A stretch of 64,000 bases of DNA from the NCBI GenBank assembly GCA_000004985.1, contig GG738850.1, one strand, 5' to 3'. This DNA comes from Naegleria gruberi (taxonomy: Eukaryota). The notes under the pieces are model-generated. The model ran no database searches and was not told the origin of the DNA. It worked only from the letters and a program-made list of their open reading frames with translations. The translations under genes were made by a program, and so were the position numbers. Shown in pieces: positions 6,901-64,000 of this stretch; within the stretch, counting starts at the first letter, position 1, and each line of letters opens with the position of its first letter.

Positions 6901-8976
6901 AAATGTTTCTTACTTGTGCACTTTGTTCTCTTGTTGGTCGAGAGCTGGATGGTGTTTGAGGAGGTTGGTAGACAGGTTTTTCAGGAGTCTTTACTTCAGG
7001 TAAGTCATTGTTAACCTCCTCAACCTGAACGCTTAAGCTTTGTCTTTCAAAAGCCATAACTTCCTCTTCATCAGTTGAAGAATTTGTTGATTTGACTTCG
7101 TCATCTTCATCATCTGATGAAATATCTGATAGAACTTCCTCTTCCTTTTTTCTTAATTGAGATTCTACCAATTCTTCCAAATTAGTTTCAGGAAGGAGAT
7201 GAACAAGAGGTTTCAAACCACCAACTTCTTCGATTCTCTTAAGATTCTCATCTTGGAGCATTAAATTCCACAATGTATGGGCAGCCTTCTTCTTAACATT
7301 ATTAACATCAACAATTGGTGATTCTGATGTCTCAATATCCTCCTTAACGGGATCAATGGATACAATAGAAACCAATGACTCGATACCACCTTCTTCACGG
7401 ATACTATTTGAAGATTCGTCATCAATAGCCATATTTGTAAGAATATTTGATGCTTTTTCAGCAATTTTCAATTCTTGAAGTGATTTGTAGCTCTTCAAAA
7501 ATTGAATAACAATAGGAATACCTCTCAATTCATAGATTTGCTTTCTATTTTCCTTTACAATTGACAAATTGTTTAACAATGTTAAAACGTTTTCCAAAGT
7601 TGTAAAATTATCACTTTCACTAATTGGATAAAGTTGTAACGAGTTGAGCAAAGATGGTATGAGATTTGAATTACTACCCATAATCAACGCATTCTCTTCA
7701 TCTAGAGAAAGTGAGGCCATGGCACCTGTCACTTTATAGACAACATCTCTATACATTTTCATATTCTTAGATGACAACTTGAGAGCAGTCAAAATAATAC
7801 TGCAAAGAATTTCTAAACCTTTCTGTTCTCTTATTTTGTCTCTAACTTCGCGACTATTTCCAGCCATATTCCATAGAATACCACTGGATGTTTTCACTTG
7901 TTCAATATCGTTAATTTTGATAGAACTTGCGGATTGTTTGATTTCTGTGAGTAATTTTTGGATCATTTCACTACTTTCGAATAAATTGTCATTGACAGGA
8001 GTATTATTAGTGGAAGGAGTATTGTTATTGCCAGACTTTTCATTTCTTGGAGATAAAATAAGTTTAGATGAAAGAATCTGAATGATATGTGAAGTATTTC
8101 TCTTCACATTCGCAAATTTAGAATTAGATAATATGATTAACTTTTCCACTAGGATCTTTGTGTCAATAGTATTTTGATTCAAATTTGGAATCATGACAAA
8201 TCTTTTAACATTTTCAATCAATAATAAATTCCACAAGCAGGCAGTCACACCTTCAATTATTTCCTGTGGGTGATCTTCTTCACTACCTGCATTGATTTTA
8301 CAAATCAATGAACAGAGGAAAGTAACTCCACCTAATTTCATAACCTGTTCACCAATTGTACTTTCTAAACAAAGAGATGAGAGTGCAATTAGTAAATTAT
8401 AAATAGTTGTTACATTCTGCTCGTCAACTAATCCACTAGAAACTAATTCTTCTAATGTCTTTATCATATTATTCAAATATTCATTGACTTTTCCTAATCC
8501 AACAAAGTATTCTCTATTCTTTTCATCAATAAATGTATTCAAAAAAGTACAAGTAATGTTTTCCAATACGGAAATATCTTCTTGATGTTCTGGCTTCATT
8601 CTTTCACACAAACTTTCAATGAGTGTGTGCTTTCTCATGACGGAACCACATTGCTCAATTGCAGAAATGTTACACAAGGTAGCAACAGCTCTCTTTCTTG
8701 TTGTTGCATCAGAACTTGCTATTAAATTTGTAATATTTGCAAATCCATTATGTTTTTCTAACTCCTTGACATCATTTTCTATAAATTTCAAATATTCGAT
8801 ACAAGAAGAATCAATAATATTCAACAACAAATTGGTGATTAATTATTACTATTTAATCATAATATCCACATACCTTCTTTAATTAATTTTTGAAACATGC
8901 CAGCAATCTGTGATCGTTTCTTATGATCATCCGAAGGTGTTGTACCTTCCAAGCTACACAACTTTTCAATATTCAT
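3971..8976 (-). CDS. Large TBC-domain (Rab GTPase-activating) protein, about 1,636 aa, with a PEVK-like low-complexity linker; 2 exons (8874..8976, 3971..8778)
   Basis: C-terminal TBC domain with RxxxW (RPRIW), Arg finger IxxDxxR (IEKDLKRT) and Gln finger YxQ (VSYSQSF). The long ORF has no in-frame ATG until far inside. An upstream exon (MNIEKLCSLEGTTPSDDHKKRSQIAGMFQKLIKE) joins in frame through a 95-nt intron (GTATGT donor at 8873, acceptor ...tttatag at 8780/8779). The middle 6280-6850 encodes a P/E/K/V-rich repetitive region. Confidence 0.75.
6280..6850 (-). repeat. Low-complexity coding repeat (PEVK-like: EPVKTP/KPE/EVVIP units) inside the TBC gene
   Basis: The translation is dominated by P, E, K and V in short degenerate repeats (KPTEEVEEVKIKEPEQVKPEPIVEKKPEIVKPIIKNVEPIPEPKKVVVETPKEQ...). 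Confidence 0.5.
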
Positions 8977-34113: not shown

Positions 34114-36994
34114 ATGGGCTGTGGCACATTTTCCAAAAATTTGGTAGAGGACAGGCACACCCCAATAATTAGTAACAAAAAGTCATCATCAACGGCGGAT
34201 ATTCCACCAACAACAACAACAAATAATCCTTCAGAAACATCAGGTTCAGTCGATATATCGAATAGAAGAGTGTCCAAACAATCTTCAGTGAGAGCAAGTA
34301 AGGCTTCTACACTAGCCGAACAACTTTCTTCTCAGCAACAACATCAATCACACCAAGAAGAAGAATATTCTTTCGCGGACCACCAAGAAGAGGCTTATGC
34401 TTTTATTCCGTGGCCAGAAGATATAATGATCAGTCTCGCTACTAAGGGATCTAAATTTGAATTAAGAGAAGTATCACTTCTTCTACCATCGGATGAATTA
34501 AATCAAAAACCTCTTCTTAAATATGTAAAGGATAAGAGAAATAATTGTCAACAAAATATAATAGATTGCATGTATACAATCATGAGTAGGGTTCTAAACT
34601 TTGGAACCAATTTACCTTTTCCTGTAAATACTGAAAACCAATTTGATCTTGCCGTTGATTTCATTGCTAATGGCTGTCCAATTGGAAAACAACAATTTAC
34701 CTTCTTTTCTCATAAAGAAATCCTCCTACACAGAAGTGCGTTCTTCAAAGGAGAGTTATCAAAAGATAACGGAGCAGTAGATTCACTAAAAAGAACCCTT
34801 AGTAGTGCTCATGACCTTAGAAAATCGATGGTAAAGGCAGAATTCGCTGATAGAAGAAACACAGCAGGTGATCCATCACAGCTAAAACGAACGTCGAGTC
34901 ATATAACATCTCAAGGTCCTAGATCGAGTCTACCTCCAATGCCCTTACAAAAACGACCTTTTAATACAACAAGCTCTTCCAACCTCCTTCAGGGTATGGG
35001 TGATCTAAGCAAATCTGGATCTTCATCTTCGATAACAAGCGTTGAAGAGGGAGGTAATTCAGAGAAGGAAGAATTATTCTCCTCACAAGGTAGTTTATCA
35101 ACACTTTTACTAACAGAAGATTCTAGGAAAAAAGGACAACGAAAGCCAAACAACCAAAATTTAGCAGTCTCCATTTCTAAGCAAACAAAAGCAAATCTAC
35201 AGCCAAGTAGGTTAGAGGTTGCAATATCTCCTCTTGTAAAAGATCCAGAGATTTTGTTGTTAGTTTTTGAAAATATTTACTCTGGCTATTTCCGACCTGA
35301 ATACGTTCAAAAGATGAAATCTTTGGATATTGAAAGTTTAATTCAGATATTAGCACTAGGTTACCAATTTAAAGTTCATTCATTGAGAGCAGTTTCAAAA
35401 AGTTTAATCAGTCAGTTTTTGTGTACCCACAAGGATAAGTACACATCTTTGGAGGAGCTCATCAATGGAACTTGCAAGAATATAACTGTTGAGGATATTC
35501 AAAAAAACAATATGAGTATAGTTTTAGAATTGAAGAAAATTTTCATGGACTCTAAGAGTAAGTAATTAATCTAGAGAATTTCTAACATGCATTTTAATAG
35601 AATCATTACAAGAAAATTTCATTTCTCTATCACAAGAAAAAAGAACATTCCTTAAGGATCTAGATTTTATGTTTGTACATAGTAATATGAAGAAGAACCA
35701 TATGGACTTCAGTGACATGAAGTTAACAATACAGGTTGAAGAAAAAAAGGAAGAAGAGGAAAAAGAAGATGAATCCCCCAAGAGGTCGTCGTCTTTCAGG
35801 GATACTTATGAAGAAGATGTTCAACCACTAATAAGTCAAAGAAAGAAGAGGACGAGCAAACTTCAGGACAGTGTCGATAAGAGTCAAACTAAGAAAATAT
35901 TTATTCACAACTTTATACTGAAATCAAGAACAGATATTACAAATCCTGAAATATTTAATCTATACAGCACAAATGTTGATGTTGTGAAGACTTTTATTCA
36001 TTACCTGTATACAGATACTATACACAGTGATACATACAATGTGAGTAAGAAGAAGATAATACCTCTTGCTGCTTTGTTCAAGATTGATAGACTGAAATAT
36101 GAATGTTTGGCTCATGCTATTTTCAATTTATCGGATGAAAACATTCTCAGGAAGTTTAAGAAAGCTCAAGATGCTAAGGAGACTGTTCTTGCCCAAGCAA
36201 TTTTCTACACAATGTCACACATGTATCCTAAACTAGTCCAAAAGAACTATGAGGAAGGAACGCCAGAATATAATATTCTCTTCTCAATAGATGAAAAGCT
36301 TAGGCATTTATATCAGAGAATGAGTGGGCAATTCCTTATTAGAAGAAGAATATTTACAGAAAGTAGGTTGGCGGAGATAATACCGAGAGCTGATGTTTCT
36401 AAACTTTCTCCTTCTCAAAAATCTCCAAACCACAAGATTAATGTTCAAATATGTGGCCTTCACGGCTCTGGTCTTAGTACCTTCGTAAATCAAGCCAAAC
36501 CTCTCATCTCTGAACTTCATTCATTTGAAGGAGTTGACAATATTGAACTCAATATTTCTTCCATGTACATATCAGACAGACCATTTACTGCAAATTCTTT
36601 AAAGTCAACAGACGGTGTAATTTTTATATTTTCCATTGATTCAGTAGATTCCTACCAAACAATGAGAGCTAAGTATGACGACTTTAGATTCTATTCCAAA
36701 GTTCCAGCTGTAATAATAGGAAACAAATGCGATTTGATACTTTGTAATTTTGAAACAGAGGACAAGATTGTTGATTCAGACAGAATAGTGAAAGAAGTAA
36801 CTGAAGATATGGCTTGCCCATATCTTGAAATGTCTTCTAAAAATTCAAGTGATGTTAAAAGATCGCTTGAGGAATGCATAAGAGAAGTGTTGTTTTATAG
36901 ACATATCACTTCAAAGATACCAAGTCATTTCTTAAATACTATTGCTAGGGATCAACAAGGATTGGAATCATCAAGTAACATTTCAGAGGAATAA
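34114..36994 (+). CDS. N-myristoylatable BTB - BTB - Ras-like GTPase fusion protein, modelled as 2 exons (34114..35557, 35601..36994); alternatively two adjacent genes
   Basis: First ORF: MGCGTF (Gly2/Cys3), BTB elements FTFFSHKEILLHRSAFFKGEL ... LLLVFENIYSGYF ... LALGYQFKVHSLRAVSKSL. Its TAA stop (35563-65) overlaps a GTAAGT donor (35558-63); a branch-like ttctaac follows, then an AG at 35599/600 that rejoins the second ORF in frame (43-nt intron). Second part: acidic linker, second BTB (FIHNFILKS...FIHYLYTDTI...LAALFKIDRLKYECL), then a small-GTPase domain (GLHGSGLST degenerate P-loop, IGNKCDL = NKxD). Only about 100 bp separate the two ORFs, too little for an independent promoter. Confidence 0.6.
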
Positions 36995-43240: not shown

Positions 43241-44311
43241 TCAATTCAAATTGCAACCAATTGCCTTGTTTGTTTGCACCTTAATTGAATGTAAAATTGG
43301 AGTTAATTTGGCAGTTAACTTGGATGGAACCTTTCCATTGGCCTTTTTTGATTCATCCATCAATAATACCAAGTCAACTGGAATTGCAACTATTGGAATG
43401 GCACTTTTAATCATCAATCCTGTTAAACTCATAATACCTGTGTGGCCATTAGTCAATCCATCAGATTTATCCAAATCTTGATGCTTGTGGCCTGTCAGAG
43501 ATTCAACAAATTGAAGAACGTTGACATTTCTATTACCAATTTTCATAACTCTACTATCAATGTATGGATCAGTCAACCTTTGTTCATAAATCTTTCTAAT
43601 CATTGCATTTACTGCTTGAGTATCCCTTTGTAAGAGTTCTTGAATGGACTTGGCTGATTTCTTGGCATGTTTCCATTCAGCAATTGATGCAGCAACTGTT
43701 GCTGTTGTTCCCACACCAACACAACCAATACCAGCACCTGAGGCAATTAATGAAACACCAAAAGTGAAAGGAGCAGCTACGATACCACCAAGAATCAAGG
43801 AAGCTCCAACAATATTGGTTTTTGTACCTTTCACTTTGGTCTTTGCTGTACTTTGTTGTTTCTTTTCTAATGATTGGATTAAATTGTCCAGCATTTTAAT
43901 GATTTCCAATCGTTGGACAAGCCACTCATTTGCAGATTGTTCAATGACAGCAAATCCACAATTTGGATTATCAAAATTGGTACTTTCAAATGTTGGGGTT
44001 TGAGGAAGAATTACATTGGTCTGGAAATTTGTTTGTTGACCACCTTTTTCATAGCTACTATTACTGGTTGTGGATTGAATTGGTTTAAAGTTATTGGTTA
44101 GTTGTAATGGTTGGGGAGTTATTGGTTGTTGTACAAATTGAGGATTAGAAGTGATAACTGGAAAATATTGAGCGTTTGGTTGTGGATACATGTATTGAGG
44201 AGGATTAGGTGGGTAAAGTTGATATTCTGGTGGTTGATAATTCACTCCAGGTTCTGTAATGTTTGGTTGAGTAGAGAAATGTGGATATTGAGGAGAAACT
44301 TGTTGATGCAT
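43241..44311 (-). CDS. Hypothetical membrane protein: P/Q/Y-rich N-terminus with a PPxY motif, central glycine-zipper hydrophobic hairpin, helical C-terminal domain (356 aa)
   Basis: N-terminus HQQVSPQYPHFSTQP...YQLYPPNPPQYMYPQP contains PPQY. The core IVGASLILGGIVAAPFTFGVSLIASGAGIGCVGVGTTATVAASIA is a GxxxG-rich hairpin. Confidence 0.55.
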   Translation of the reverse strand: MHQQVSPQYPHFSTQPNITEPGVNYQPPEYQLYPPNPPQYMYPQPNAQYFPVITSNPQFVQQPITPQPLQLTNNFKPIQSTTSNSSYEKGGQQTNFQTNVILPQTPTFESTNFDNPNCGFAVIEQSANEWLVQRLEIIKMLDNLIQSLEKKQQSTAKTKVKGTKTNIVGASLILGGIVAAPFTFGVSLIASGAGIGCVGVGTTATVAASIAEWKHAKKSAKSIQELLQRDTQAVNAMIRKIYEQRLTDPYIDSRVMKIGNRNVNVLQFVESLTGHKHQDLDKSDGLTNGHTGIMSLTGLMIKSAIPIVAIPVDLVLLMDESKKANGKVPSKLTAKLTPILHSIKVQTNKAIGCNLN

Positions 44312-47301: not shown

Positions 47302-48282
47302 ATGCCAAGAACACTTTTCTCTGCACTTCCACACGAAACACTTCAACACATATTATCTTTTGGAGTTTGCAATCTATCTTCTTGCAAAAGAGAGGAACTT
47401 TATTCATGTATTCGATTTGTTTCCAATTTTCAATCTTTAAACAAGCAACTTTCTTCCGAAATGCAACGCTATTTTAATGAATTTTGGTGGCTAGTAGTAA
47501 AGAAAACAGTTGGATATAATTTATTATTAGAAACTGAGTATAATCAATTAAAAGAGAAAATGATTGAAATTGGAGAATTAAAAAGGAAGGCATTAATTGC
47601 TAAATATATTACAAGAAATGCTCGTACAAGATATTCAGATGTGAGATTGTTAGTATTTGGCTATAAAAAAGTTGGAAAATCAGCAATTACCATTCAATTC
47701 TTACAAGGAGTTTTCATATCAGAATATTCATCATTATGTGACGATTCCTATCGTAAACCATATGAAGTAGATGGCCATTACGGATTACTAGATATTCTAG
47801 ATTGCTCTACAGATGCTGATCCATCATCTGCATTGAGGGATGGACATGTAATTTCTGGAAATAGTTATTTAATTGTTTGGGATGTTTCCAATACAGAAAA
47901 CTTATTGGAAAAGACTGACACCTTGTTAAGCCAATTATTCGAACTCAGATTCATTAGGAATACTCAGGTTATGAATAACTTTCCAATTGTATTTGCTTTG
48001 AATAAGACGGATTTATTAGAGGATTCCAATGGAAGTAATGTTATAATTGAGAAATGCAGAAATGCAATTAATGAAGTTATCAGAAAGAAAGAGTTGAATA
48101 ATTGTGCAATTATTGAATGTAGTGCTAAAAAAGGAGAAAATATACATTCTTTATTTGAAGAGTGTGTGAGAAGAGAGAGACTAATGACTGACCAAGATCA
48201 TTTATCTTTATTGAAGAATGTTTTGACACATGATTCGAAATGCATTCACCGAAGCACTAACAAATCATGCACCCTTCATTGA
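47302..48282 (+). CDS. F-box-like + Ras-like GTPase fusion protein (326 aa)
   Basis: N-terminal LPHETLQHILSFGVCNL is F-box-like. The GTPase domain has an intact P-loop FGYKKVGKS, NKTDL (NKxD) and CSAK, but switch II DxxGQ is replaced by LDILDCSTDAD. Confidence 0.65.
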   Translation: MPRTLFSALPHETLQHILSFGVCNLSSCKREELYSCIRFVSNFQSLNKQLSSEMQRYFNEFWWLVVKKTVGYNLLLETEYNQLKEKMIEIGELKRKALIAKYITRNARTRYSDVRLLVFGYKKVGKSAITIQFLQGVFISEYSSLCDDSYRKPYEVDGHYGLLDILDCSTDADPSSALRDGHVISGNSYLIVWDVSNTENLLEKTDTLLSQLFELRFIRNTQVMNNFPIVFALNKTDLLEDSNGSNVIIEKCRNAINEVIRKKELNNCAIIECSAKKGENIHSLFEECVRRERLMTDQDHLSLLKNVLTHDSKCIHRSTNKSCTLH

Positions 48283-48460
48283 CTTGTACAGAAATAACCT
48301 GTCGTTAACTCATCCTTAATCAATATCAAGATAAGAAAAATCATTGCATCTACCACGACTGTCCAATATTGTGTTTTCAAAATCAAGATTGAATGTTTCA
48401 ACAAGGTATCAATCAACAATCAACATATAAAGTGATTTAGTTGCCTACCACCAAGAAAAA

Positions 48461-49921
48461 ATGTCACAACATCATCACAACAATACTAGACCCAATTTAT
48501 TAGAAAATATTCCTTTGGAAGTTTGGCAGAGTTGTATTTTTGAATATTGGCTCGGACCCATTCATGAAATCAATCAGTGTTTGGATAAATTGAATATTGA
48601 TGAAATTGAAAAGTTTAAAAATGTAATTTATTCAAAGATTATTGATGGATTGGATTTGATGAGTGTGCGGAGTGTTCATAAACTTTGTTATTTGGTTTCT
48701 AGGAGATTTAGAGAATTGTTTATAAAGGAAATGGACGAGTTTTGGTTGAAGGTATCGAATATGTTGGAGATGGCTGTTTATTGGAGAAGGTATGAAACTT
48801 CAAAAGGTGCTACATTAGCACAGGGTGATATTACGGCCATAGATTCTATTCCCTATGTGCAAATGCAAAAATTAATTGAGGCCACTGAAATGAATCTAAA
48901 TAGAGAATATACTGATATTATTGATCCATCCATGTGTAGAGAACACTGGCATAATTCAAATATTAAAAAAAAGAATGATGTAAATACGGAGCTGATGCAT
49001 CAGGAATTTGTAAAGAGATTTGAAAAATTAATCATCTCTCAAGAAAAATACGAAAAGATTAGAAAAGTAACTCAACTCGATAGCTATGATTTGTTTTTAC
49101 ACAAGTCATTTATAATATCATTGGACATGATTTCATATTTCGATAGTGAAAGGTCTAATTCAGGTTATTCTAGTTTTAGCACTGAGACTCAATGTCAATT
49201 ATTCAATAAGGGGCTCTTTTCCTTAAAACCTAACCCTAACTCTCTTGGATTAATTATTTCACATGCAGAAAACTCAGAGGAAGTACTTAACATTGATTCA
49301 AAATTCATAGCTATTTCAATTTCAAACTCTGAATGGGCAGAAAAGCAGTTTACAAACATTCCAAATACTGTACAATATCTATGTCTTGAATTCAATCATC
49401 ACTCCTATTCAGGGTATAAGAGCTTGATAGATAAACGCCTATTTGATGAGAATGATCCTGTATTTCCCAATGTTCGTGATCTAACCATTAGAATCGGATA
49501 TCCTGAAGATGATGACTATTTCCTCCACAATTTAGTCATTGAAAAGAATATTCTTTCTGGAATAACAAGGACGAGATTTCCAAAATTGATAAGAATTTCA
49601 ATTTGTGGCTTTGGATCAATGGAATCTCTGTTAGATTGTGAAATTTTGAGCCAATTACCTTATGTGGAAATTATTCAATTCTCTCATGGATATGATTACG
49701 AATTGACTCGTCATTGGTCAGAAAGAAAAGTTCATGAATTAGTAACAAGACATCAAGATTCATTGATTCATCATTTGGTAGTTCATGCATGTATTAGTAG
49801 AATCAATAATGATGCTGATTATGGTTCAATTAAGGAATATTACAATCTCAGTAAGCCAAAGTTTGTGGCTTCCATTTCTCATTCCTCATTCAATGAATAT
49901 TACGAAAATTGCTTCGAATAA
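48461..49921 (+). CDS. F-box-like protein (486 aa)
   Basis: N-terminal LENIPLEVWQSCIFEYWLGPI is F-box-like and an N-terminal His run is present. The rest is unassigned, with an LRR-like periodicity late in the protein (...LTIRIGYPEDDDYFLHNLVIEKNILSGITRTRFPKLIRISICGF...). Confidence 0.55.
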   Translation: MSQHHHNNTRPNLLENIPLEVWQSCIFEYWLGPIHEINQCLDKLNIDEIEKFKNVIYSKIIDGLDLMSVRSVHKLCYLVSRRFRELFIKEMDEFWLKVSNMLEMAVYWRRYETSKGATLAQGDITAIDSIPYVQMQKLIEATEMNLNREYTDIIDPSMCREHWHNSNIKKKNDVNTELMHQEFVKRFEKLIISQEKYEKIRKVTQLDSYDLFLHKSFIISLDMISYFDSERSNSGYSSFSTETQCQLFNKGLFSLKPNPNSLGLIISHAENSEEVLNIDSKFIAISISNSEWAEKQFTNIPNTVQYLCLEFNHHSYSGYKSLIDKRLFDENDPVFPNVRDLTIRIGYPEDDDYFLHNLVIEKNILSGITRTRFPKLIRISICGFGSMESLLDCEILSQLPYVEIIQFSHGYDYELTRHWSERKVHELVTRHQDSLIHHLVVHACISRINNDADYGSIKEYYNLSKPKFVASISHSSFNEYYENCFE

Positions 49922-50146: not shown

Positions 50147-53100
50147 ATGGAGCGAACATTATCATCGACAAATTGGAATAGAAAATTTAATTGTTCCGAA
50201 CAACGACAACGATCATCAATTCATATTGTAAATTATTTAATAGTGATAATTATTAGTTTTATTCTCATTAGTCATGGAATTAATTCAGTGATGGGAAAGA
50301 TTAGATATTTTGATACAAATAGTTTATTTGAACAAAATTATGTTCACTCAACGACATCAACAAGTGCTTCTGATGATGATGATACGGATTATTCGGCCCT
50401 ATTTTCAGATACATCACCACAACTTTCACTATTTAATATTCACAAGATTATTTCAGCGAGATTTGTCTTTTCAAAATTTAACGAGTTTATTTATTTACCA
50501 TCGAAATCTAATTCTACAATGGTGTTTTACTTTTTGACAGTTCTTAAAGATGGATTTGTCAAAATTGATTGTGATGGTGTTATTAACACAAAGGATTCAA
50601 CAATTTCAAGTACACTTGTAGTTGGAAAATATAATTTGGAAGAAGAAAAAGTTGTTTGGGCTGCCAAGCAAGAAATTCAATACTTTTTCGGTAAACCATT
50701 TGCATACGTAACAGAAAAAGATGAGATTATTATCAGTTGTAATATCAAAGATGATCAAGGTATTTTCTCAAAAAAGTTCTTTTCAGTGAATGGTGTATCA
50801 ACAAAACAACCTTCATTCGTCAACAAGAATACTGCACGAGAAGTCAACATTGTCATGGAAGGTAGTATTGATCGATTTTCTACTATTGGTAATCAAAGTG
50901 AAGGGTTTTTAGTGTTTGGTGCTAAAAATTTGAGAAAAACAAACTCTCTTTACGATTCTAAAAAGGAGACTTTGCATTTAGAAACATCTGTTATGGCTTC
51001 TTTTTATGCTGATGGATCACCTAGATGGAATGTGAAATTAGGTATGTGTTTAGTTTCATTTTTATATTCATAATACTGATCCAAGTTTATGGAAATATTG
51101 AGTTTTTTGAGCTTCTTTCAGTTAAAGTAGTTAGTTTATCAAATAACACTATACCCATTGTTGCTTGCTTTAATTATCTTGGAAGTGGCAGCCTAAAAAC
51201 TTTTGAGAGCCTTCAGGATACCTTTGTAGCACAAACAGATTCAGGATTCGAAAATACTAATTTCAGACTTTTTTCAAAGTACTTTTCAGCTGGAGTTTAT
51301 AGTATTTCTGAAACAGGGGTGTTTTCAGAACTATTTTCATTAAGAGCTTATCCTACAGGTGATTCAACAAGTGCCAACATTCTTGTTAAAGGGTTTTACT
51401 ATGACAAGGACAAGAAAATCTACATTTTATTAATTTATATGAAAGGATATCTTACTTTTTCTAAAACCAGTCATGGAGGATCCAATATGGAAGGAAATAT
51501 AATTTACACATCTACCAACAGAACTGGAGATTATATTCTTGTGAAATATACTGAGGGAGGTACTCCAGTATGCGTTCCTACATCATACATTGGTGATGAT
51601 CCTATTGTAACTACAAATTATTTTATCAATAAGAGAGTTTCTATTGAATCCTACAATAGTTCAAAGCTGCATTTGGAAGTGATAGATATTGAAACAGGAA
51701 CTATCAGGGATAATTTGGCAATTGACATTCAATCCGAAGACCCGTATGGCATTCAGTACGAATTATTTTATGAAAAGAGAAGATATTTAATTGTAAGAGG
51801 AACAACTCAAAATAATGGAACAATATTAATTAATAACAAGTTTTATGTAAAGCCATCAAAGGGTCAGTCAGAATTGGTATTTGTTCTGTACTTGAATACT
51901 CACCCAGAATATGGTAAACGTGAATTGGAATGTGATCAACAACTCAAATGCAGAGCGGTAAGTTTGAATTTTCAATCATTTTTAATTGTTCGATTAGAAT
52001 GCAAATGACAAGATTTGTCAAGCACATGGTATTTGTAATATGGAACAAAAATGTGAATGTGATGAATTCTATATGGGAGATTTTTGTGAAACATATTATA
52101 GAAATACTTTTATAGCAGTTATGGCAACTGTAGGAGTCATATTGATTACTCTGACAGGAAGTGTTTTAACAGGCATCGGAATGTATGCTTACAGAACAAT
52201 AGCTAAACGTCTAAAGCGTTTGCAGAGCAAGGTTAAGGCTGAACAAGAATTGGAACAAAAATTATTGGAATTTGTTGGACTTAATATTAACGAAACTACG
52301 TTTAATTTCAAAACATGGCTCATTCCATTCGAACAATTAACAATTGACAGAGAAATTGCTAGCTCTAATGGAAGAACAATTTTCCAAGGCTCATGGAAAG
52401 GAACATCTGTTGCCATTAAGAAGGTTAGACTAGAAGATTCCTTTGATTACCATGAGGATACTAAGGAATTGAACCTGGATAAAACATTGGAAAGAGAAGC
52501 AGCCATTTTGAGTAGAGTTAGACATCCTAATATTTTGAGATTCTGGGGTTTGGCATTTACTCAAACTGAACAATTTTTAGTGAGTGAGTTATTTACCTTG
52601 AGTATGGATCAAATTATTGATGAGGCAAAAAGAGGAGATCTCTACATTCCAATCCTTTGTAAACTTCAAATTCTACACGATATTGCATGTTCAATGACCT
52701 ATTTACATGAATTTGATCCTCCAATTCTTCACAGAAATTTAAAACCATCCAATATTATGGTAAGTTTTCAGGAAATTTTATTGATTTTCCTTACAATTTC
52801 AAGTTGAGTGAAGACGTCAGATATGGAAAAATACTTTCTGCTGTAAAGCCAAAAATCGCTGACTTTGGATTGTCTACACACTTGAGAGAAGATAATGTTC
52901 TTACGATGCAAATCGGTAATGTTCTATACTCAGATCCTCTCATCTTTAAGGGTGAAAGATATTCTGAAAAGTGTGATGTTTACAGTTTCTCAATGATAAT
53001 GTACGAAATGTTTTTTGAAACAGAACCATACAAAACTTCAGATAAGGTTGGAGAAATTAAGGAAAATTATAATCAATACTCAGTTCTTCCAAACAAGATA

Positions 53101-53343
53101 TCTGAAGGGTACAGACCAAAGATTCCTTTCACAAAAACTCTTGAATCGATTGGTGATTGGATGGAATCTAATTTAGAGTTAATCAATGAACGAATTACAG
53201 ATCCAGAAAATTTAGCAAAATGCATCCAATCCTATTCTGAACTAATGAAGAAATGTTGGTCTGGTGATCAAGATGAAAGACCTTCTTTCCGTGCCATCCA
53301 AGTTTCTATCCAGCAAATTATCAAAGCTTTGGAAATTAAATAA
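50147..53343 (+). CDS. Single-pass receptor-like protein kinase (TKL-like), 4 exons: 50147..51041, 51086..51957, 52013..52759, 52804..53343 (about 1,017 aa); predicted pseudokinase (HRD to HRN)
   Basis: Signal/anchor ILISHGINSV, then a large Cys-poor ectodomain. An EGF-like module CRA|ICQAHGICNMEQKCECDEFYMGDFCE is assembled across the 55-nt intron 51958..52012. TM segment FIAVMATVGVILITLTGSVLTGIGMYAY. Kinase elements: GSWKGTSVAIKK (VAIK), E in helix C, HRNLKPSNIM (catalytic Asp replaced by Asn), IADFGLS (DFG), APE-like region, CW..RPSF. The first and last introns are 44 nt (GTATGT and GTAAGT donors); phases verified against all four ORF-track frames. Confidence 0.8.
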
Positions 53344-59040: not shown

Positions 59041-60729
59041 ATGGGAACCCCAGATTGGGGTAATGATTTAACACTCAACTATGACACTTGCAATATTATG
59101 TCACTCACACAAAAACAATCAAAAAAAATGAGTAAACGAAATAGACAAGATTTGGAAAATCAATTAATTAATTATTCGGAGGAAAATAATATGGACGAGA
59201 AAGCAAAAAAGGTTTCAATGCAACGACAAGAAATATTTTCAGATGATGTTTGTTTTGAAATAATTTGCATGCTCGATGATTCGTGGTTTATTTTGAATAA
59301 TTGTTCATTGATTTCAAAACAATTCTTTAATGTGATCAAGGAACGTTCAAAACTTGTTATTCAATTTAATCAAAAATTTACAGAAACAAGAATTGAATTA
59401 TTCATGAAAAGTCAATTTATGAATAGTATTGTTCATCTTAAATTTTATAGAAGCTCGCTTGACTCTATAGAACAAGTCAAATTAATAAGTGAAATGAAAC
59501 AATTAAAATTACTTGATATTCGTGGAATTCAAATAGGAGATGAAGGAGCCAAATTTATAAGTGAAATGAAACAATTGAGATCACTTAGTATTTATAACAA
59601 TCAAATTGGTGTAGCAGGAGTCAAATCAATAAGTGAAATGAAACAATTAACATCACTTGCAATTTGTAACAATCGAATTGGTGATGAAGGAGTCAAATTT
59701 ATAAGTGAAATGAAACAATTAACGTCACTTACTATATGTTACAATCAAATTGGTGTTGAAGGAGTAAAATCCATAATTGAAATGAACCAATTAAAATCAC
59801 TTAATATATCTTACAATGAAATTGGAGATGAAGGCGCGAAATCAATATGTGAAATGAAACAATTAACATCACTTAATATATGTGACAATCGAATTGGTGT
59901 AGAAGGAATCAAATCAATATGTGAAATGAAACAATTAACATTACTTAATATATCTAAGAATCAAATTGGTGATGAAGGAGTCAAATTCATAATTGAAATG
60001 AAGCAATTAACGTCACTTGACATATGTTACAATCGAATTGGTGATGAAGGAGCCAAATCCATAAGTGAAATGAAACAATTGAAATCACTTGATATTTATA
60101 ATAATCAAATTAGTGATGAAGGAGTCAAATTTATAAGTGAAATGAAACAATTAACATCACTTGATATTAGTGCAAATGAAATTGGTGTAGAAGGAACCAA
60201 ATCAATATGTGAAATGAAACAATTAACATTACTTAATATATCTAAGAATCAAATTGGTGATGAAGGAGTCAAATTCATAATTGAAATGAAGCAATTAACG
60301 TCACTTGACATATGTTACAATCGAATTGGTGATGAAGGAGCCAAATCCATAAGTGAAATGAAACAATTGAAATCACTTGATATTTATAATAATCAAATTA
60401 GTGATGAAGGAGTCAAATTTATAAGTGAAATGAAACAATTAACATCACTTGATATTAGTGCAAATGAAATTGGCGTTGAAGGAGTCAAATCAATAAGTGA
60501 AATGAAACAATTAACATCACTTAATATTAATAACAATGAAATTGGTGATGAAGGAGCCAAATTTATAAGTGAAATGAAACAATTAACATCACTTAATATA
60601 TGTTACAATCGAATTGGTGTTGAAGGAGTCAAATTAATAGGTGAAATGAAACAATTGAAATCACTTAATATTAATTACCAAAAGACGAAATCTAAGGATT
60701 TGGTATGGATTACAAATGAGACTGCTTAA
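59041..60729 (+). CDS. Leucine-rich-repeat protein of the ribonuclease-inhibitor (RNI/NLR-type) class, about 17 tandem 24-residue repeats (562 aa)
   Basis: Repeat consensus (K/S)ISEMKQLTSL(N/D)I(S/C/Y)xNxIGDEGVKF, i.e. LxxLxLxxNxIGxxGxxxL. The 120-aa N-terminal region is non-repetitive, and there is no NACHT/NB-ARC domain in this ORF. Confidence 0.8.
   Translation: MGTPDWGNDLTLNYDTCNIMSLTQKQSKKMSKRNRQDLENQLINYSEENNMDEKAKKVSMQRQEIFSDDVCFEIICMLDDSWFILNNCSLISKQFFNVIKERSKLVIQFNQKFTETRIELFMKSQFMNSIVHLKFYRSSLDSIEQVKLISEMKQLKLLDIRGIQIGDEGAKFISEMKQLRSLSIYNNQIGVAGVKSISEMKQLTSLAICNNRIGDEGVKFISEMKQLTSLTICYNQIGVEGVKSIIEMNQLKSLNISYNEIGDEGAKSICEMKQLTSLNICDNRIGVEGIKSICEMKQLTLLNISKNQIGDEGVKFIIEMKQLTSLDICYNRIGDEGAKSISEMKQLKSLDIYNNQISDEGVKFISEMKQLTSLDISANEIGVEGTKSICEMKQLTLLNISKNQIGDEGVKFIIEMKQLTSLDICYNRIGDEGAKSISEMKQLKSLDIYNNQISDEGVKFISEMKQLTSLDISANEIGVEGVKSISEMKQLTSLNINNNEIGDEGAKFISEMKQLTSLNICYNRIGVEGVKLIGEMKQLKSLNINYQKTKSKDLVWITNETA
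59476..60690 (+). repeat. 72-bp-period coding tandem repeat (about 17 units) including a near-perfect 288-bp (4-unit) tandem duplication at about 59905-60192 / 60193-60480
   Basis: Two 288-nt blocks, both starting aaatcaatatgtgaaatgaaacaattaacattacttaatatatctaagaatcaaattggtgatgaaggagtcaaattcataattg..., occur at an offset of exactly 288 nt. They differ at only 2-3 positions (gaatc vs gaacc; ggtgtag vs ggcgttg). Confidence 0.8.
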
Positions 60730-62380: not shown

Positions 62381-64000
62381 TCATTCTTCATTGAGGTAAT
62401 TCCAATTGTGAGGATCTGAATTTGGACATTGTGAATTCAGGACAATCTTATCAAACTTTAAGGTGATCAATTGCTGATTAGAGTTAATGACATGCATGAT
62501 ATTTGGTTTAGTACAGAAAGATCCAAGTACCCATCCAACTGTTTGATTGGCCTTTTTGAAGGATAGTTCGTTGTGATCGAAAAGAAGAACGTGGCCCTTT
62601 CCTTCATCTCCAAATCCAAGAATGGCCACAGTTGAGTCATTGATTTCACAAGCTGATTGAGGTGTTGGATGAATTCTAAAGTTCTTTGCCTCAAATGCCA
62701 AAGTAGGAATTGATTTGTCTGGATAGATTATTTTCCATGTCTTTTTCTTTAAATCAAAACAATGAACTTTTGAAAATGATTTCGTAGAGTCACTACCACC
62801 AATTATCAAAAGTGAATTCTTTTCTGGCAAATGAATGGCTGAATGCTGAGAGAGGGGATCAGGTAAATCGTTATGATCCTCTTGTTTAATTTTCTCCCAT
62901 GAAAAAGATGATAAATTCAATAGATACATGTCGTTGAAATATTCGTAAGGACCTCCCTTACAGACTTGTCCACCAAATATCAATATACTATTCAACTTTG
63001 CTATGTAAGTTGCAGAGTGGAAGGCACGTGCAGATGGAACTTCTCCTTTGGTTTTCACATTAATGAGAGAGGCAGCATTGATATCATAGCAAATGACATC
63101 ATTGTACTGATATTGAGAATCAAAACCACCAAATATGAAAACCATATCATTGACACATGTGGCAGAGTGTCCCCACTTGGTTTCTGTGACAAATTTCCCA
63201 CTCGTATTCTTCAACTTTGGCACAGAAACATTTCCAGTATTTACATCAATGAATTGAATCATTTGTCCTGCGGTAGCTCTTGGTCCTCCAATTACAATAA
63301 TTGTATCTTTCCATTGACAAGTGCTTGAGAATATTCTATCACCAATGGCTGCATTATTTACAGAGCTAACAGAAGAAACGAGCTTTTGATTTCTTTGCTT
63401 GGTAGTTGGCAATCTCATAACTCCTCGTACTTTAGGTTGTCTAATATAGAATTCATCATCGCTTGGACATACATTTGTGGTATGATATCTGGACTTACAT
63501 GAACCACATTCCTTAATGGAGTAATAGTTTCTTGTTTGGCCACAAACCAAGTAATAATATTTGAAGAATTCAGGAGGTACTGGATAGAGTGTTTGTTTGG
63601 AACCATAAAATCCACCACCAGTTTCCAAAGTCCTTGGTAGATCGTCCAAAGATTTGATTTCTCCAACTGGTTCAGTACAATACAATGAAGATGGTCTACC
63701 AAATAAACCAACAGTGTATGAATCAGAATCATCAGAATCATCTCCAATCCACCAATAATTTAGAGAAATAGAATTTCCATCTGAGAGTACCATGTGTGGC
63801 CATCCTTTTGGGATGAACATAACATCACCAGGATTCAGTGTGACACGAACAGGATTTGATTTGAAAAAGTTAGGGAAATTCAGTGCGATTTCAGAAGGTT
63901 CCTTAGTGAGATCGATACGTGTTTGTCTATCACTGGTTGGATGATCTTCCTCATTGAGATAGAGTAAGGATTTTTCCTTTGGCTCCCATAAAATCATGTG
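62381..64000 (-). CDS. JmjC/cupin C-terminal portion + Kelch-repeat beta-propeller protein; 5' end of gene is beyond the window
   Basis: VTLNPGDVMFIPKGWPHMV...SLNYWW is the C-terminal half of a JmjC fold (its N-terminal HxD/E part must lie upstream, off-window). It is followed by at least four Kelch blades (WGHSATCVNDMVFIFGG, RAFHSATYIAKLNSILIFGG, HSAIHLPEKNSLLIIGG, TVAILGFGDEG). The architecture resembles TYW-type or JmjC-Kelch hydroxylases. The stop is at 62381. Confidence 0.7.
   Translation of the reverse strand, partial: HMILWEPKEKSLLYLNEEDHPTSDRQTRIDLTKEPSEIALNFPNFFKSNPVRVTLNPGDVMFIPKGWPHMVLSDGNSISLNYWWIGDDSDDSDSYTVGLFGRPSSLYCTEPVGEIKSLDDLPRTLETGGGFYGSKQTLYPVPPEFFKYYYLVCGQTRNYYSIKECGSCKSRYHTTNVCPSDDEFYIRQPKVRGVMRLPTTKQRNQKLVSSVSSVNNAAIGDRIFSSTCQWKDTIIVIGGPRATAGQMIQFIDVNTGNVSVPKLKNTSGKFVTETKWGHSATCVNDMVFIFGGFDSQYQYNDVICYDINAASLINVKTKGEVPSARAFHSATYIAKLNSILIFGGQVCKGGPYEYFNDMYLLNLSSFSWEKIKQEDHNDLPDPLSQHSAIHLPEKNSLLIIGGSDSTKSFSKVHCFDLKKKTWKIIYPDKSIPTLAFEAKNFRIHPTPQSACEINDSTVAILGFGDEGKGHVLLFDHNELSFKKANQTVGWVLGSFCTKPNIMHVINSNQQLITLKFDKIVLNSQCPNSDPHNWNYLNEE

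What the first reader, a model, noticed from the sequence alone, without database searches (positions are those of the whole stretch)
47302..49921. F-box-GTPase fusion next to a second F-box-like gene
An F-box-like N-terminus is fused to a Ras-family domain whose switch II (DxxGQ) is replaced by LDILDCSTDAD. That predicts no intrinsic GTP hydrolysis, with the G domain acting as a permanently GTP-state-like binding module or SCF substrate receptor. The immediately downstream gene also starts with an F-box-like motif, suggesting a local cluster of SCF-type adaptors.
Basis: partly seen in the sequence, partly recalled or inferred. Interest (0 to 1): 0.55.

Follow-up and report, generated by a model that had tools for sequence, protein, structure and literature searches.

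The report
Naegleria Ras pseudoGTPase with F-box-like start
This is an already catalogued Naegleria gruberi Ras-family gene whose GTPase switch is broken and whose N-terminus only partly resembles an F-box, while the gene next to it shows no F-box signal, so the finding is a modest addition to a published pattern.

Summary
The window is Naegleria gruberi nuclear DNA. ORF 47302-48282 (326 aa) is exactly the manually corrected model of XP_002681395.1 that Herman et al. 2021 (PMC8296547, Table S8) list as "Ras", with no extra domain and no pseudogene flag.

The degenerate switch II is real, and the damage goes further. G12, G13, T35, G60 and Q61 are all replaced, while GKS, NKxD and SAK are kept, so this looks like a nucleotide-binding but non-switching pseudoGTPase. 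It also ends in a CaaX-like CTLH.

The gene belongs to a Naegleria Ras subgroup of at least 17 paralogues. They share a roughly 110-aa helical N-terminal extension, and many also have a degenerate switch II.

That extension starts with a conserved LPxEIxxHILSF motif. The motif matches F-box profiles at 88-92% hhalign probability, but over helix 1 only. Pfam stays below threshold, and a confident AlphaFold2 model found no F-box fold in the PDB.

The downstream gene (48461-49921) belongs to an orphan Naegleria family. Its match to F-box profiles is at background level, and the adjacency is not seen at the paralogue loci that could be checked.

F-box fusions to Rab, Rho, Ran and Gα GTPases are already published for Naegleria. 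This would at most add the Ras family to that list.

The parts
47302..48282 (+). Intronless gene for a 326-aa Ras-family protein. It equals the corrected model of N. gruberi XP_002681395.1.
   Evidence: ORF. The identical 326-aa sequence is in Herman 2021 Table S8. It is absent as an exact product from the protein collection.
47302..47637 (+). N-terminal extension of about 112 aa, a family-specific helical domain with predicted helices at aa 11-21, 30-46, 52-70, 74-90 and 93-111.
   Evidence: AF2 gives pLDDT 89.9 and pTM 0.80. An HMM of this region finds only the same family among 1.84 billion representative proteins (16 hits). W62 is invariant, and F61 and R95 nearly so.
47317..47361 (+). Motif resembling F-box helix 1 (FSALPHETLQHILSF, aa 6-20).
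   Evidence: Pfam F-box-like PF12937 at E=0.07, profile positions 1-15 only. hhalign against known F-boxes gives 89.8-92.3% probability, P=1.8e-6 to 5.6e-7. The column-shuffle control scores 8.0 +/- 1.4 against 31.3 observed.
47638..48174 (+). Ras/Rap-like G domain (aa 113-291).
   Evidence: Pfam PF00071 at E=1.6e-17. Rap1b at 3.3e-21, with K-Ras and M-Ras next.
47659..47682 (+). P-loop GYKKVGKS. The GK[ST] part is kept, and G12 and G13 are both replaced by Lys.
   Evidence: Alignment to K-Ras.
47725..47751 (+). Degenerate switch I, YSSLCDDSY. The Thr35 equivalent is Leu145.
47800..47826 (+). Degenerate G3/switch II, DCSTDADPS. D57 is kept, G60 is Thr, Q61 is Asp, and there is a one-residue insertion.
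48001..48012 (+). Intact G4 guanine-specificity motif NKTD.
   Evidence: NKxD is invariant in all 15 family members tabulated.
48121..48129 (+). Intact G5 motif SAK.
48268..48279 (+). C-terminal CaaX-like tetrapeptide CTLH. The final residue is atypical, and the polybasic stretch of the paralogues is missing.
   Evidence: Paralogues end in CSIM, CSLM, CNVM, CSVM or CICM.
48461..49921 (+). Adjacent gene for a 486-aa 'predicted protein', a member of an orphan Naegleria multigene family. No F-box signal detected.
   Evidence: 100% identical to P0006 of N. gruberi, with seven paralogues at 41-50% identity. No Pfam or PDB sequence match.
48497..48559 (+).
   Evidence: Conserved in P0007 and in L001 ORF 1469-2902. 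hhalign to F-box gives probability 0.5-1.4%.

Best explanation
The gene at 47302-48282 is one paralogue of a Naegleria-specific, fast-diversifying Ras subgroup.

Every member has four parts:
- a five-helix N-terminal domain of about 110 aa that opens with an F-box helix-1-type LPxEIxxHILSF motif;
- a Ras/Rap-like G domain;
- a conserved C-terminal helix;
- a CaaX box.

Shown for this copy: the G domain keeps the residues that hold a guanine nucleotide (GKS, D57, NKTD, SAK). It has lost every residue needed to sense or hydrolyse the gamma-phosphate (G12K, G13K, T35L, G60T, Q61D).

Inferred: the protein most likely acts as a nucleotide-bound but non-cycling pseudoGTPase. It would be a possibly membrane-tethered adaptor whose partner binding depends on the conserved N-terminal domain rather than on a GTP/GDP switch.

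Inferred: the N-terminal domain is probably an F-box-derived or F-box-mimicking module. Whether it still binds Skp1 is unproven.

Shown: the downstream gene belongs to an unrelated orphan family, sits there without any adjacency at the paralogue loci checked, and has no detectable F-box signal.
For: Identity of the locus:
- ORF2 is 100% identical to an N. gruberi protein.
- ORF1 is identical to the corrected XP_002681395.1 in Table S8 of PMC8296547.

The family:
- The N-terminal HMM hits only this family among 1.84 billion representative proteins.
- At least 17 N. gruberi paralogues share the extension.

G-motif table:
- GK[ST] and NKxD are invariant in all 15 family members.
- Only 3 of the 15 keep Gln61.
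- Seven have lost the DxxG glycine.
- The window copy is among the most degenerate.

Constraint on the N-terminus:
- N-terminal identity to the nearest paralogue is 49-50%, against 43-44% for the whole protein.
- The family-conserved residues are retained, so the N-terminus is under at least as much constraint as the G domain.

F-box helix 1:
- hhalign gives 89.8% (P=1.8e-6), 90.1%, and 92.3% (P=5.6e-7), far above the shuffle control.
- 6 of 15 members independently have PF12937 as their top weak Pfam hit (best E=2e-4).
- In two members without the loop insertion, the distance from LP to the conserved Trp is close to canonical: 38 aa in XP_002668120, the same as in Skp2, and a few residues longer in P0022.

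The N-terminal domain is predicted confidently as a compact helical domain (pLDDT 89.9, pTM 0.80).

Intactness: a 326-codon ORF in DNA of about 33% GC is not expected by chance. My estimate is about 1e-11 from a stop-codon frequency of 0.075 per codon.
Against: - No experimental data exist on expression, nucleotide binding, prenylation or partners.
- The P-loop with two lysines and the loss of T35 could abolish nucleotide binding altogether.
- CTLH is an atypical CaaX, and the polybasic stretch is missing, so membrane anchoring is uncertain.
- All F-box matches stop after helix 1, at profile positions 1-15 to 1-23.
- AF2 draws the stretch aligned to helices H2 and H3 as one long helix at aa 30-46.
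- Herman et al. did not record any extra domain for this gene.
Confidence: 0.55

Rival explanations
1. The N-terminus is a functional, divergent F-box that binds Skp1. The protein is then an SCF (CRL1) substrate receptor, and its dead Ras domain serves as the substrate- or membrane-binding module.
For: - The helix-1 motif matches F-box profiles at 88-92% probability.
- Six of 15 members hit PF12937, and further members hit other F-box-type models (PF00646, PRANC, F-box_4, F-box-like_2).
- Global hhalign to Naegleria Rab-like F-boxes over 45 columns still gives 71%.
- TbFRP in the sister group Euglenozoa is a FYVE-F-box-GTPase.
- From my own knowledge, truncated poxviral PRANC F-boxes still bind Skp1.
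Against: - No member reaches a Pfam gathering score; the best is 21.1 bits against 24.3.
- Helices H2 and H3 are not detected.
- Most members carry a 10-25-aa insertion after H1.
- The AF2 model shows no F-box-like match in the PDB or BFVD.
- A PDB sequence-profile search found nothing.
- SMART, Pfam and CDD, as used by Herman et al., did not call an F-box in this Ras subgroup.
Confidence: 0.27
2. The window copy is a decaying, functionless paralogue of a birth-and-death gene family. The loss of switch residues and the odd CaaX simply reflect relaxed selection.
For: - It has the most degenerate G motifs in the family, an atypical CTLH end and no polybasic stretch.
- Table S8 flags several family members as putative pseudogenes, for example ACER01000490 and XP_002669178.
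- There is no one-to-one N. fowleri orthologue, since the ID occurs only in the N. gruberi sheet.
- The original gene model was wrong.
Against: - The ORF is intact over 326 codons in AT-rich DNA.
- All family-conserved N-terminal residues, GKS, NKTD, SAK and the C-terminal helix are kept.
- Herman et al. did not flag it as a pseudogene.
- Switch II degeneration recurs in many intact paralogues, which points to a tolerated or selected state rather than decay.
Confidence: 0.15
3. The two adjacent genes form a functional pair or cluster of F-box adaptors.
For: - The genes lie on the same strand 178 bp apart.
- Both N-termini contain a (L/I)PxE(I/V) motif.
- hhalign between the two N-terminal families aligns this motif, but only at 3.9% probability.
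Against: - The ORF2 family scores at background against F-box profiles.
- There is no Pfam hit.
- All other paralogues of both families lie on different scaffolds, judged from contig lengths.
- The ORF2 paralogue in L001 follows an HMG-box gene.
- The GTPase paralogues in L003 and L005 are not followed by an ORF2-type gene.
- The 64-kb window holds no further copy of either family.
Confidence: 0.03

Closest known systems
Naegleria F-box-GTPase fusions (Rab-like, Rho, Ran, G-alpha), from Herman et al. 2021, BMC Biol 19:142, Additional files 4 and 10
   Same: Same organism and same architecture: an N-terminal LPxE-type motif, a helical linker and a small-GTPase domain. Both are lineage-specific expansions with birth-and-death dynamics, and some carry a CaaX. 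The window gene is itself in their table.
   Different: [quoted passage not shown] This Ras subgroup received no domain call, and here only helix 1 is detectable.
TbFRP (FYVE-F-box-Ras-like GTPase of Euglenozoa; PMC3593210)
   Same: An F-box placed N-terminal to a Ras-superfamily G domain, in a discoban protist. Its function is unknown, and a link to ubiquitin-dependent turnover has been proposed.
   Different: TbFRP has a FYVE domain, and its G domain is closest to Rab18. Its authors found no N. gruberi orthologue. The window protein has no FYVE domain, has a Ras/Rap-like G domain and ends in a CaaX-like tetrapeptide. Homology between the two was not tested because no TbFRP sequence was available.
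RhoBTB and Rab40 (small GTPases fused to cullin-adaptor domains)
   Same: Same concept: a small-GTPase domain is fused to a module that docks on a cullin-RING ligase (BTB for CRL3, SOCS box for CRL5). The RhoBTB G domain is also atypical. This rests on my own knowledge, plus the mention of RhoBTB in Naegleria.
   Different: The adaptor domain differs and sits C-terminal in both. No BTB or SOCS box is present here.
Rap1/Ras proper
   Same: Best sequence match of the G domain (Rap1b at 3.3e-21), with a C-terminal CaaX.
   Different: G12, G13, T35, G60 and Q61 are lost. The protein has a 112-aa N-terminal domain and an extra C-terminal helix.
PseudoGTPases and constitutively bound atypical GTPases (Rnd, RhoH and similar; reviewed in PMC13236570)
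   Same: Nucleotide-binding motifs are retained while catalytic residues are substituted. Function is expected to be regulated by abundance or localisation rather than by cycling.
   Different: Rnd and RhoH keep T35 and G60 and are truly GTP-locked. Here both gamma-phosphate sensors are gone.

Membership tests
Ras family small GTPase (Pfam PF00071) | Profile match above the curated threshold | tested here: met
   64 bits against a cutoff of 21.6, E=1.6e-17, aa 115-291. Rap1b at 3.3e-21.
Ras family small GTPase (Pfam PF00071) | G1 P-loop GxxxxGK[ST] | tested here: met
   GYKKVGKS. G12 and G13 are both Lys.
Ras family small GTPase (Pfam PF00071) | G2/switch I threonine (T35) | tested here: not met
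   YSSLCDDSY, so T35 is Leu.
Ras family small GTPase (Pfam PF00071) | G3 DxxG(Q) in switch II | tested here: not met
   DCSTDAD. D57 is kept, G60 is Thr and Q61 is Asp.
Ras family small GTPase (Pfam PF00071) | G4 NKxD and G5 SAK | tested here: met
   NKTD and SAK.
Ras family small GTPase (Pfam PF00071) | C-terminal CaaX prenylation box | tested here: inconclusive
   CTLH has the CaaX form, but His as the last residue is atypical. Paralogues end in CSIM, CSLM or CNVM.
F-box domain (Pfam PF00646 / PF12937), ORF1 N-terminus | Profile match above the curated threshold | tested here: not met
   PF12937 gives 13.3 bits against 24.3, E=0.07. The best family member reaches 21.1 bits.
F-box domain (Pfam PF00646 / PF12937), ORF1 N-terminus | Helix 1 motif LPxE-hydrophobic-x-x-I/L-x-x-aromatic/L | tested here: met
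   LPHETLQHILSF, conserved in the family. hhalign gives 88-92% probability over 17-22 columns, and the shuffle control reaches a maximum score of 12 against 31 observed.
F-box domain (Pfam PF00646 / PF12937), ORF1 N-terminus | Helices 2-3 (the hydrophobic/V-C/S-K-x-W-x-x-L part) completing the three-helix unit of about 40-48 aa | tested here: inconclusive
   No Pfam match extends beyond profile position 23. The global hhalign score is neither raised nor lowered by the rest of the alignment (71% over 45 columns). Two members have canonical or near-canonical spacing. AF2 predicts a single 17-residue helix there.
F-box domain (Pfam PF00646 / PF12937), ORF1 N-terminus | Three-dimensional similarity to solved F-box domains | tested here: inconclusive
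F-box domain (Pfam PF00646 / PF12937), ORF1 N-terminus | Binding to Skp1 | not testable with these tools
   No complex prediction or experiment was available.
F-box domain, ORF2 N-terminus (48461-49921) | Any profile similarity to F-box | tested here: not met
   hhalign gives probability 0.5-1.4% and a score of about 11.7, which is shuffle-level. No Pfam hit at E up to 10.
Naegleria Ras subgroup with N-terminal extension (this family) | N-terminal domain with LPxEI...FQSLN...FWW...KRK, followed by a Ras domain, a C-terminal helix and a CaaX | tested here: met
   The HMM finds paralogues at E=1e-51 to 1e-7. Alignments.
TbFRP orthologue group | FYVE domain plus F-box plus Rab18-like G domain | tested here: not met
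   No FYVE hit in Pfam. The G domain is Ras/Rap-like. The authors found no N. gruberi orthologue.

The most novel reading that the evidence does not exclude
The N-terminal domain of this Ras subgroup is a divergent but functional F-box. Naegleria would then have built a family of at least 17 farnesylated Ras-type SCF receptors. In members with an intact switch (for example XP_002674622) the GTP state would gate substrate ubiquitination at membranes. In switch-dead members such as this one, recruitment would be constitutive. [quoted passage not shown]
Probability: 0.25. Interest if true: 0.55.

Novelty: new member of a known kind. Interest (0 to 1): 0.27.

Why it matters
If the N-terminal domain really docks on Skp1, the Ras family would join the GTPase classes that Naegleria couples directly to cullin-RING ubiquitin ligases. 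That would strengthen the published suggestion that GTPase-dependent ubiquitination is a significant regulatory mode in this lineage.

The subgroup would also offer a natural series, from switch-competent to switch-dead paralogues, for testing it.

As it stands, the gene is already catalogued, the general phenomenon is published, and the F-box assignment for this subgroup is only partial. The practical value is limited to two things: a domain-annotation hint for the Naegleria Ras subgroup, and a correction of the claim about the neighbouring gene.

Tried and rejected
- **PDB sequence-profile searches.** Searches with the N-terminal alignment and with the ORF2 family alignment found nothing.
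- **Third homologue search.** A search with the ORF2 N-terminal profile returned nothing, although identical proteins are in the database. I treat this as a sensitivity failure and it was uninformative.
- **Recovering paralogue N-termini.** Looking up N. gruberi paralogue loci to recover missing N-termini and check synteny failed, because N. gruberi gene positions are not on record. I used environmental contigs L001-L006 instead.
- **AFDB fold search.** The afdb50 library was unavailable.
- **Viral fold search.** The BFVD search gave nothing.
- **Direct similarity of the two N-termini.** BLASTP gives E=2.7 and hhalign 3.9%, so this was rejected.
- **Giant virus or Entamoeba origin.** I considered this early because of the AT-rich DNA, the mitochondrial carrier and the transmembrane kinase. 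The 100% N. gruberi match rejected it.
- **Unannotated gene.** I considered that ORF1 was unannotated. Table S8 shows it is XP_002681395.1 with a corrected model.
- **Tandem duplicate of the nearby Ras-BTB gene.** Rejected at 26% identity over 119 aa, E=0.003.
- **Structure of ORF2.** This could not be predicted because both AF2 jobs went to ORF1.
Full report
**Origin and gene content.** The window is AT-rich (about 31-36% GC). ORF 48461-49921 is 100% identical to a Naegleria gruberi 'predicted protein' on a 707,703-bp scaffold, so the window is N. gruberi nuclear DNA. The flagged interval holds two same-strand ORFs 178 bp apart: 47302-48282 (326 aa) and 48461-49921 (486 aa). The upstream neighbour is a mitochondrial-carrier gene. 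Downstream lie two orphan ORFs and a transmembrane kinase gene that is split by an intron.

**ORF1, the G domain.**
- Pfam finds a Ras domain at aa 115-291 (E=1.6e-17). The best solved relatives are Rap1b (3.3e-21), then K-Ras and M-Ras.
- Aligned to K-Ras, the motifs are:
  - P-loop GYKKVGKS: GKS is kept, and G12 and G13 are both Lys.
  - Switch I YSSLCDDSY: T35 is Leu.
  - Switch II DCSTDADPS: D57 is kept, G60 is Thr, Q61 is Asp, and there is a one-residue insertion.
  - G4 NKTD and G5 SAK are intact.
  - The C-terminus is CTLH.
- By established Ras biochemistry, Q61 positions the catalytic water. T35 and G60 are the two residues that couple the gamma-phosphate to the switch conformations.
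- With all three gone, hydrolysis is not expected. Nor is a true 'GTP-locked' conformation. The retained GKS, NKxD and SAK motifs argue that a guanine nucleotide may still be bound. This is an inference, not a measurement.

**ORF1 is already catalogued.**
- The exact 326-aa product is absent from the large protein collection. There the best hits are two N. gruberi 'ras family small GTPases' at 43% and 39% identity.
- Herman et al. 2021 (PMC8296547), Additional file 10 (Table S8), lists precisely this sequence as the manually corrected model of XP_002681395.1.
- They annotate it 'Ras', with no pseudogene flag and no additional domain.
- The ID occurs only in the N. gruberi sheet, so no one-to-one N. 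fowleri orthologue was assigned.

**The family.**
- An HMM of the N-terminal 112 aa was searched against 1.84 billion representative proteins. It found 16 proteins at E up to 1e-3. Fourteen belong to the same family; the two weakest (E of 1.6e-4 and 7.8e-4) look unrelated. The family hits are N. gruberi paralogues plus fragments from environmental assemblies.
- Table S8 adds further corrected paralogues. I count at least 17 N. gruberi genes with the same architecture:
  - LPxEIxxHILSF, then a variable loop of 0-25 aa;
  - I.x..NFQSLN, then FWW, then a helical stretch with LKRKILL;
  - the Ras domain;
  - a conserved C-terminal helix (D.L.LLK...D);
  - a CaaX box.
- W62 is invariant, and F61 and R95 are nearly so.
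- The motif table shows GK[ST] and NKxD invariant in all 15 members tabulated. Only 3 keep Gln61, Pro61 is the commonest residue there, and seven have lost the DxxG glycine.
- Loss of the switch is thus a recurrent, tolerated state in the subgroup, and the N-terminal domain is at least as conserved as the G domain. N-terminal identity to the nearest paralogue is 49-50%, against 43-44% overall.

**Is the N-terminus an F-box?** The sequence evidence is positive but partial.
- Pfam F-box-like (PF12937) matches ORF1 at E=0.07 and 13.3 bits against a cutoff of 24.3, covering profile positions 1-15 only.
- Among 15 family N-termini, 6 have PF12937 as a weak hit (best E=2e-4, 21.1 bits). Others hit PF00646, PRANC, F-box_4 or F-box-like_2.
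- None reaches a gathering score, and none extends beyond profile position 23.
All eight pass Pfam F-box models.
  - The 16-sequence family N-terminus gives 89.8% probability against it (P=1.8e-6, score 31.3), confident over 22 columns that correspond to helix 1.
  - Sixty column-shuffled controls score 8.0 +/- 1.4, with a maximum of 12.
- With 19 sequences, the result against the textbook alignment is 90.1%.
- Against 12 Naegleria Rab-like F-boxes taken from Table S8:
  - the local result is 92.3% (P=5.6e-7, 17 columns);
  - the global result is 71% over 45 columns, with an unchanged score. The remainder of the domain therefore neither adds nor subtracts.
- Two members lack the loop insertion. 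In XP_002668120 the distance from LP to the conserved Trp is 38 aa, the same as in Skp2. In P0022 it is a few residues longer.

**Structural evidence does not support an F-box.**
- AlphaFold2 on the 112-aa domain with 15 sequences gives pLDDT 89.9 and pTM 0.80. It predicts helices at aa 11-21, 30-46, 52-70, 74-90 and 93-111.
- The stretch that would be helices H2 and H3 is drawn as one 17-residue helix.
- Foldseek against the PDB finds nothing better than E=3.3.
- BFVD gives nothing, and a PDB sequence-profile search gives nothing.
- A three-helix unit of about 40 residues inside a 112-residue query would rank poorly anyway, so I score this test as inconclusive rather than negative.
- Net: the module is F-box-like or F-box-derived and recognisable only through helix 1. 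Membership of the F-box family is not established.

**ORF2.**
- It belongs to an N. gruberi multigene family with seven further members, six in N. gruberi and one from an environmental contig, at 41-50% identity.
- It has no Pfam or PDB sequence match.
- Most deposited models lack the N-terminus. An environmental contig (L001, ORF 1469-2902) shows the full form, MTHLLSLPLDIWRYCIFEYWLGP....
- The motif is conserved, but the family profile scores at background against both F-box alignments (probability 0.5-1.4%, score about 11.7).
- It aligns with the ORF1 family at only 3.9% probability, and BLASTP between the two N-termini gives E=2.7.
- The 'second F-box-like gene' is not supported.

**Clustering.**
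- The other paralogues of both families lie on scaffolds of different lengths, and so on different scaffolds.
- The ORF2 paralogue in L001 follows an HMG-box gene.
- The GTPase paralogues in L003 and L005 are not followed by an ORF2-type gene. The window holds no second copy of either family.
- The adjacency is therefore not seen at any other locus that could be checked.
The two G domains are only distantly related.

**Comparison with what is known.**
[quoted passage not shown] The term 'F-box' occurs 72 times in their table.
- TbFRP of Euglenozoa is a FYVE-F-box-GTPase with a Rab18-like G domain, and no N. gruberi orthologue was found.
- RhoBTB and Rab40 are the analogous CRL3 and CRL5 fusions (my own knowledge).
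- The present gene would at most extend the Naegleria list to the Ras family, through a degenerate F-box. The gene itself, and the general phenomenon, are already in the literature.

**Verdict.**
The dead-switch Ras domain is real, the N-terminal motif is real but is only helix 1 of an F-box, and the second gene shows no F-box signal.
- Most likely mechanism (confidence about 0.55): a non-cycling, possibly prenylated Ras pseudoGTPase that acts as an adaptor through a conserved F-box-derived helical domain.
- A true SCF receptor remains a live rival (about 0.27).
- A decaying paralogue is less likely (about 0.15).
- Interest is low to moderate.

Noticed in passing
window 34114-35565 and 35669-36994 (+): These two ORFs, presumably joined by an intron, encode XP_002681393. 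Herman et al. list it as the single Ras-BTB fusion of N. gruberi, with a one-to-one N. fowleri orthologue (Ras34). The Ras domain is at aa 307-407 of the second ORF, and its P-loop looks degenerate (GLHGSGLST, with no Lys). It lies only about 10 kb upstream of the F-box-like Ras gene, but the two G domains share just 26% identity over 119 aa (E=0.003). Pfam did not detect the BTB domain here at E up to 0.01.
   Followed up: partly
L002 2339-2386; L003 about 880-1088: Paralogues of the GTPase on environmental contigs (ENA ERZ929261) have an intron inside the P-loop codons, right after GGVG. This explains why many database fragments end there. The window gene is intronless.
   Followed up: partly
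P0007 (paralogue of ORF2): The 720-aa gene model carries an extra N-terminal stretch with a weak RNase H match (E=3e-4). It is probably a retroelement remnant merged into the model.
   Followed up: no
ORF2-family models P0009-P0013; L001 1469-2902: Most deposited gene models of the ORF2 family start downstream of the conserved N-terminal LPx(E/D)IWxxCIFEYWLGP motif. The full N-terminus is visible in L001 and in the window copy, so the models are likely truncated.
   Followed up: partly
window 52040-53343 (+), with 51025-52008: A receptor-like kinase: an EGF-like Cys motif, a transmembrane helix and a kinase domain. The reading frame breaks at about 52805, consistent with an intron. The preceding orphan ORFs (50147-52008) may be its extracellular part.
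   Followed up: no
window 3971-8830 (-): A 1619-aa protein that combines ARM-like, RhoGEF and RabGAP-TBC domains in one polypeptide. This is another unusual small-GTPase regulator architecture.
   Followed up: no
window 43241-44311 (-): A 356-aa ORF with an apolipoprotein L-like domain (PF05461, E=6e-8).
   Followed up: no
window 59041-60729 (+) and 62381-63997 (-): An LRR protein (RNI-type repeats) and a protein with a partial Cupin_8 match (JmjC-type) followed by Kelch repeats. LRR and Kelch repeats are common substrate-binding domains in F-box proteins, but I did not check for an F-box in either.
   Followed up: no
(tool behaviour): The word-indexed homologue search with a 103-column profile of the ORF2 N-terminus returned no hit, even though identical proteins (P0006, P0007) are in the database. 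Negative results of that tool with short profiles should not be trusted.
   Followed up: no
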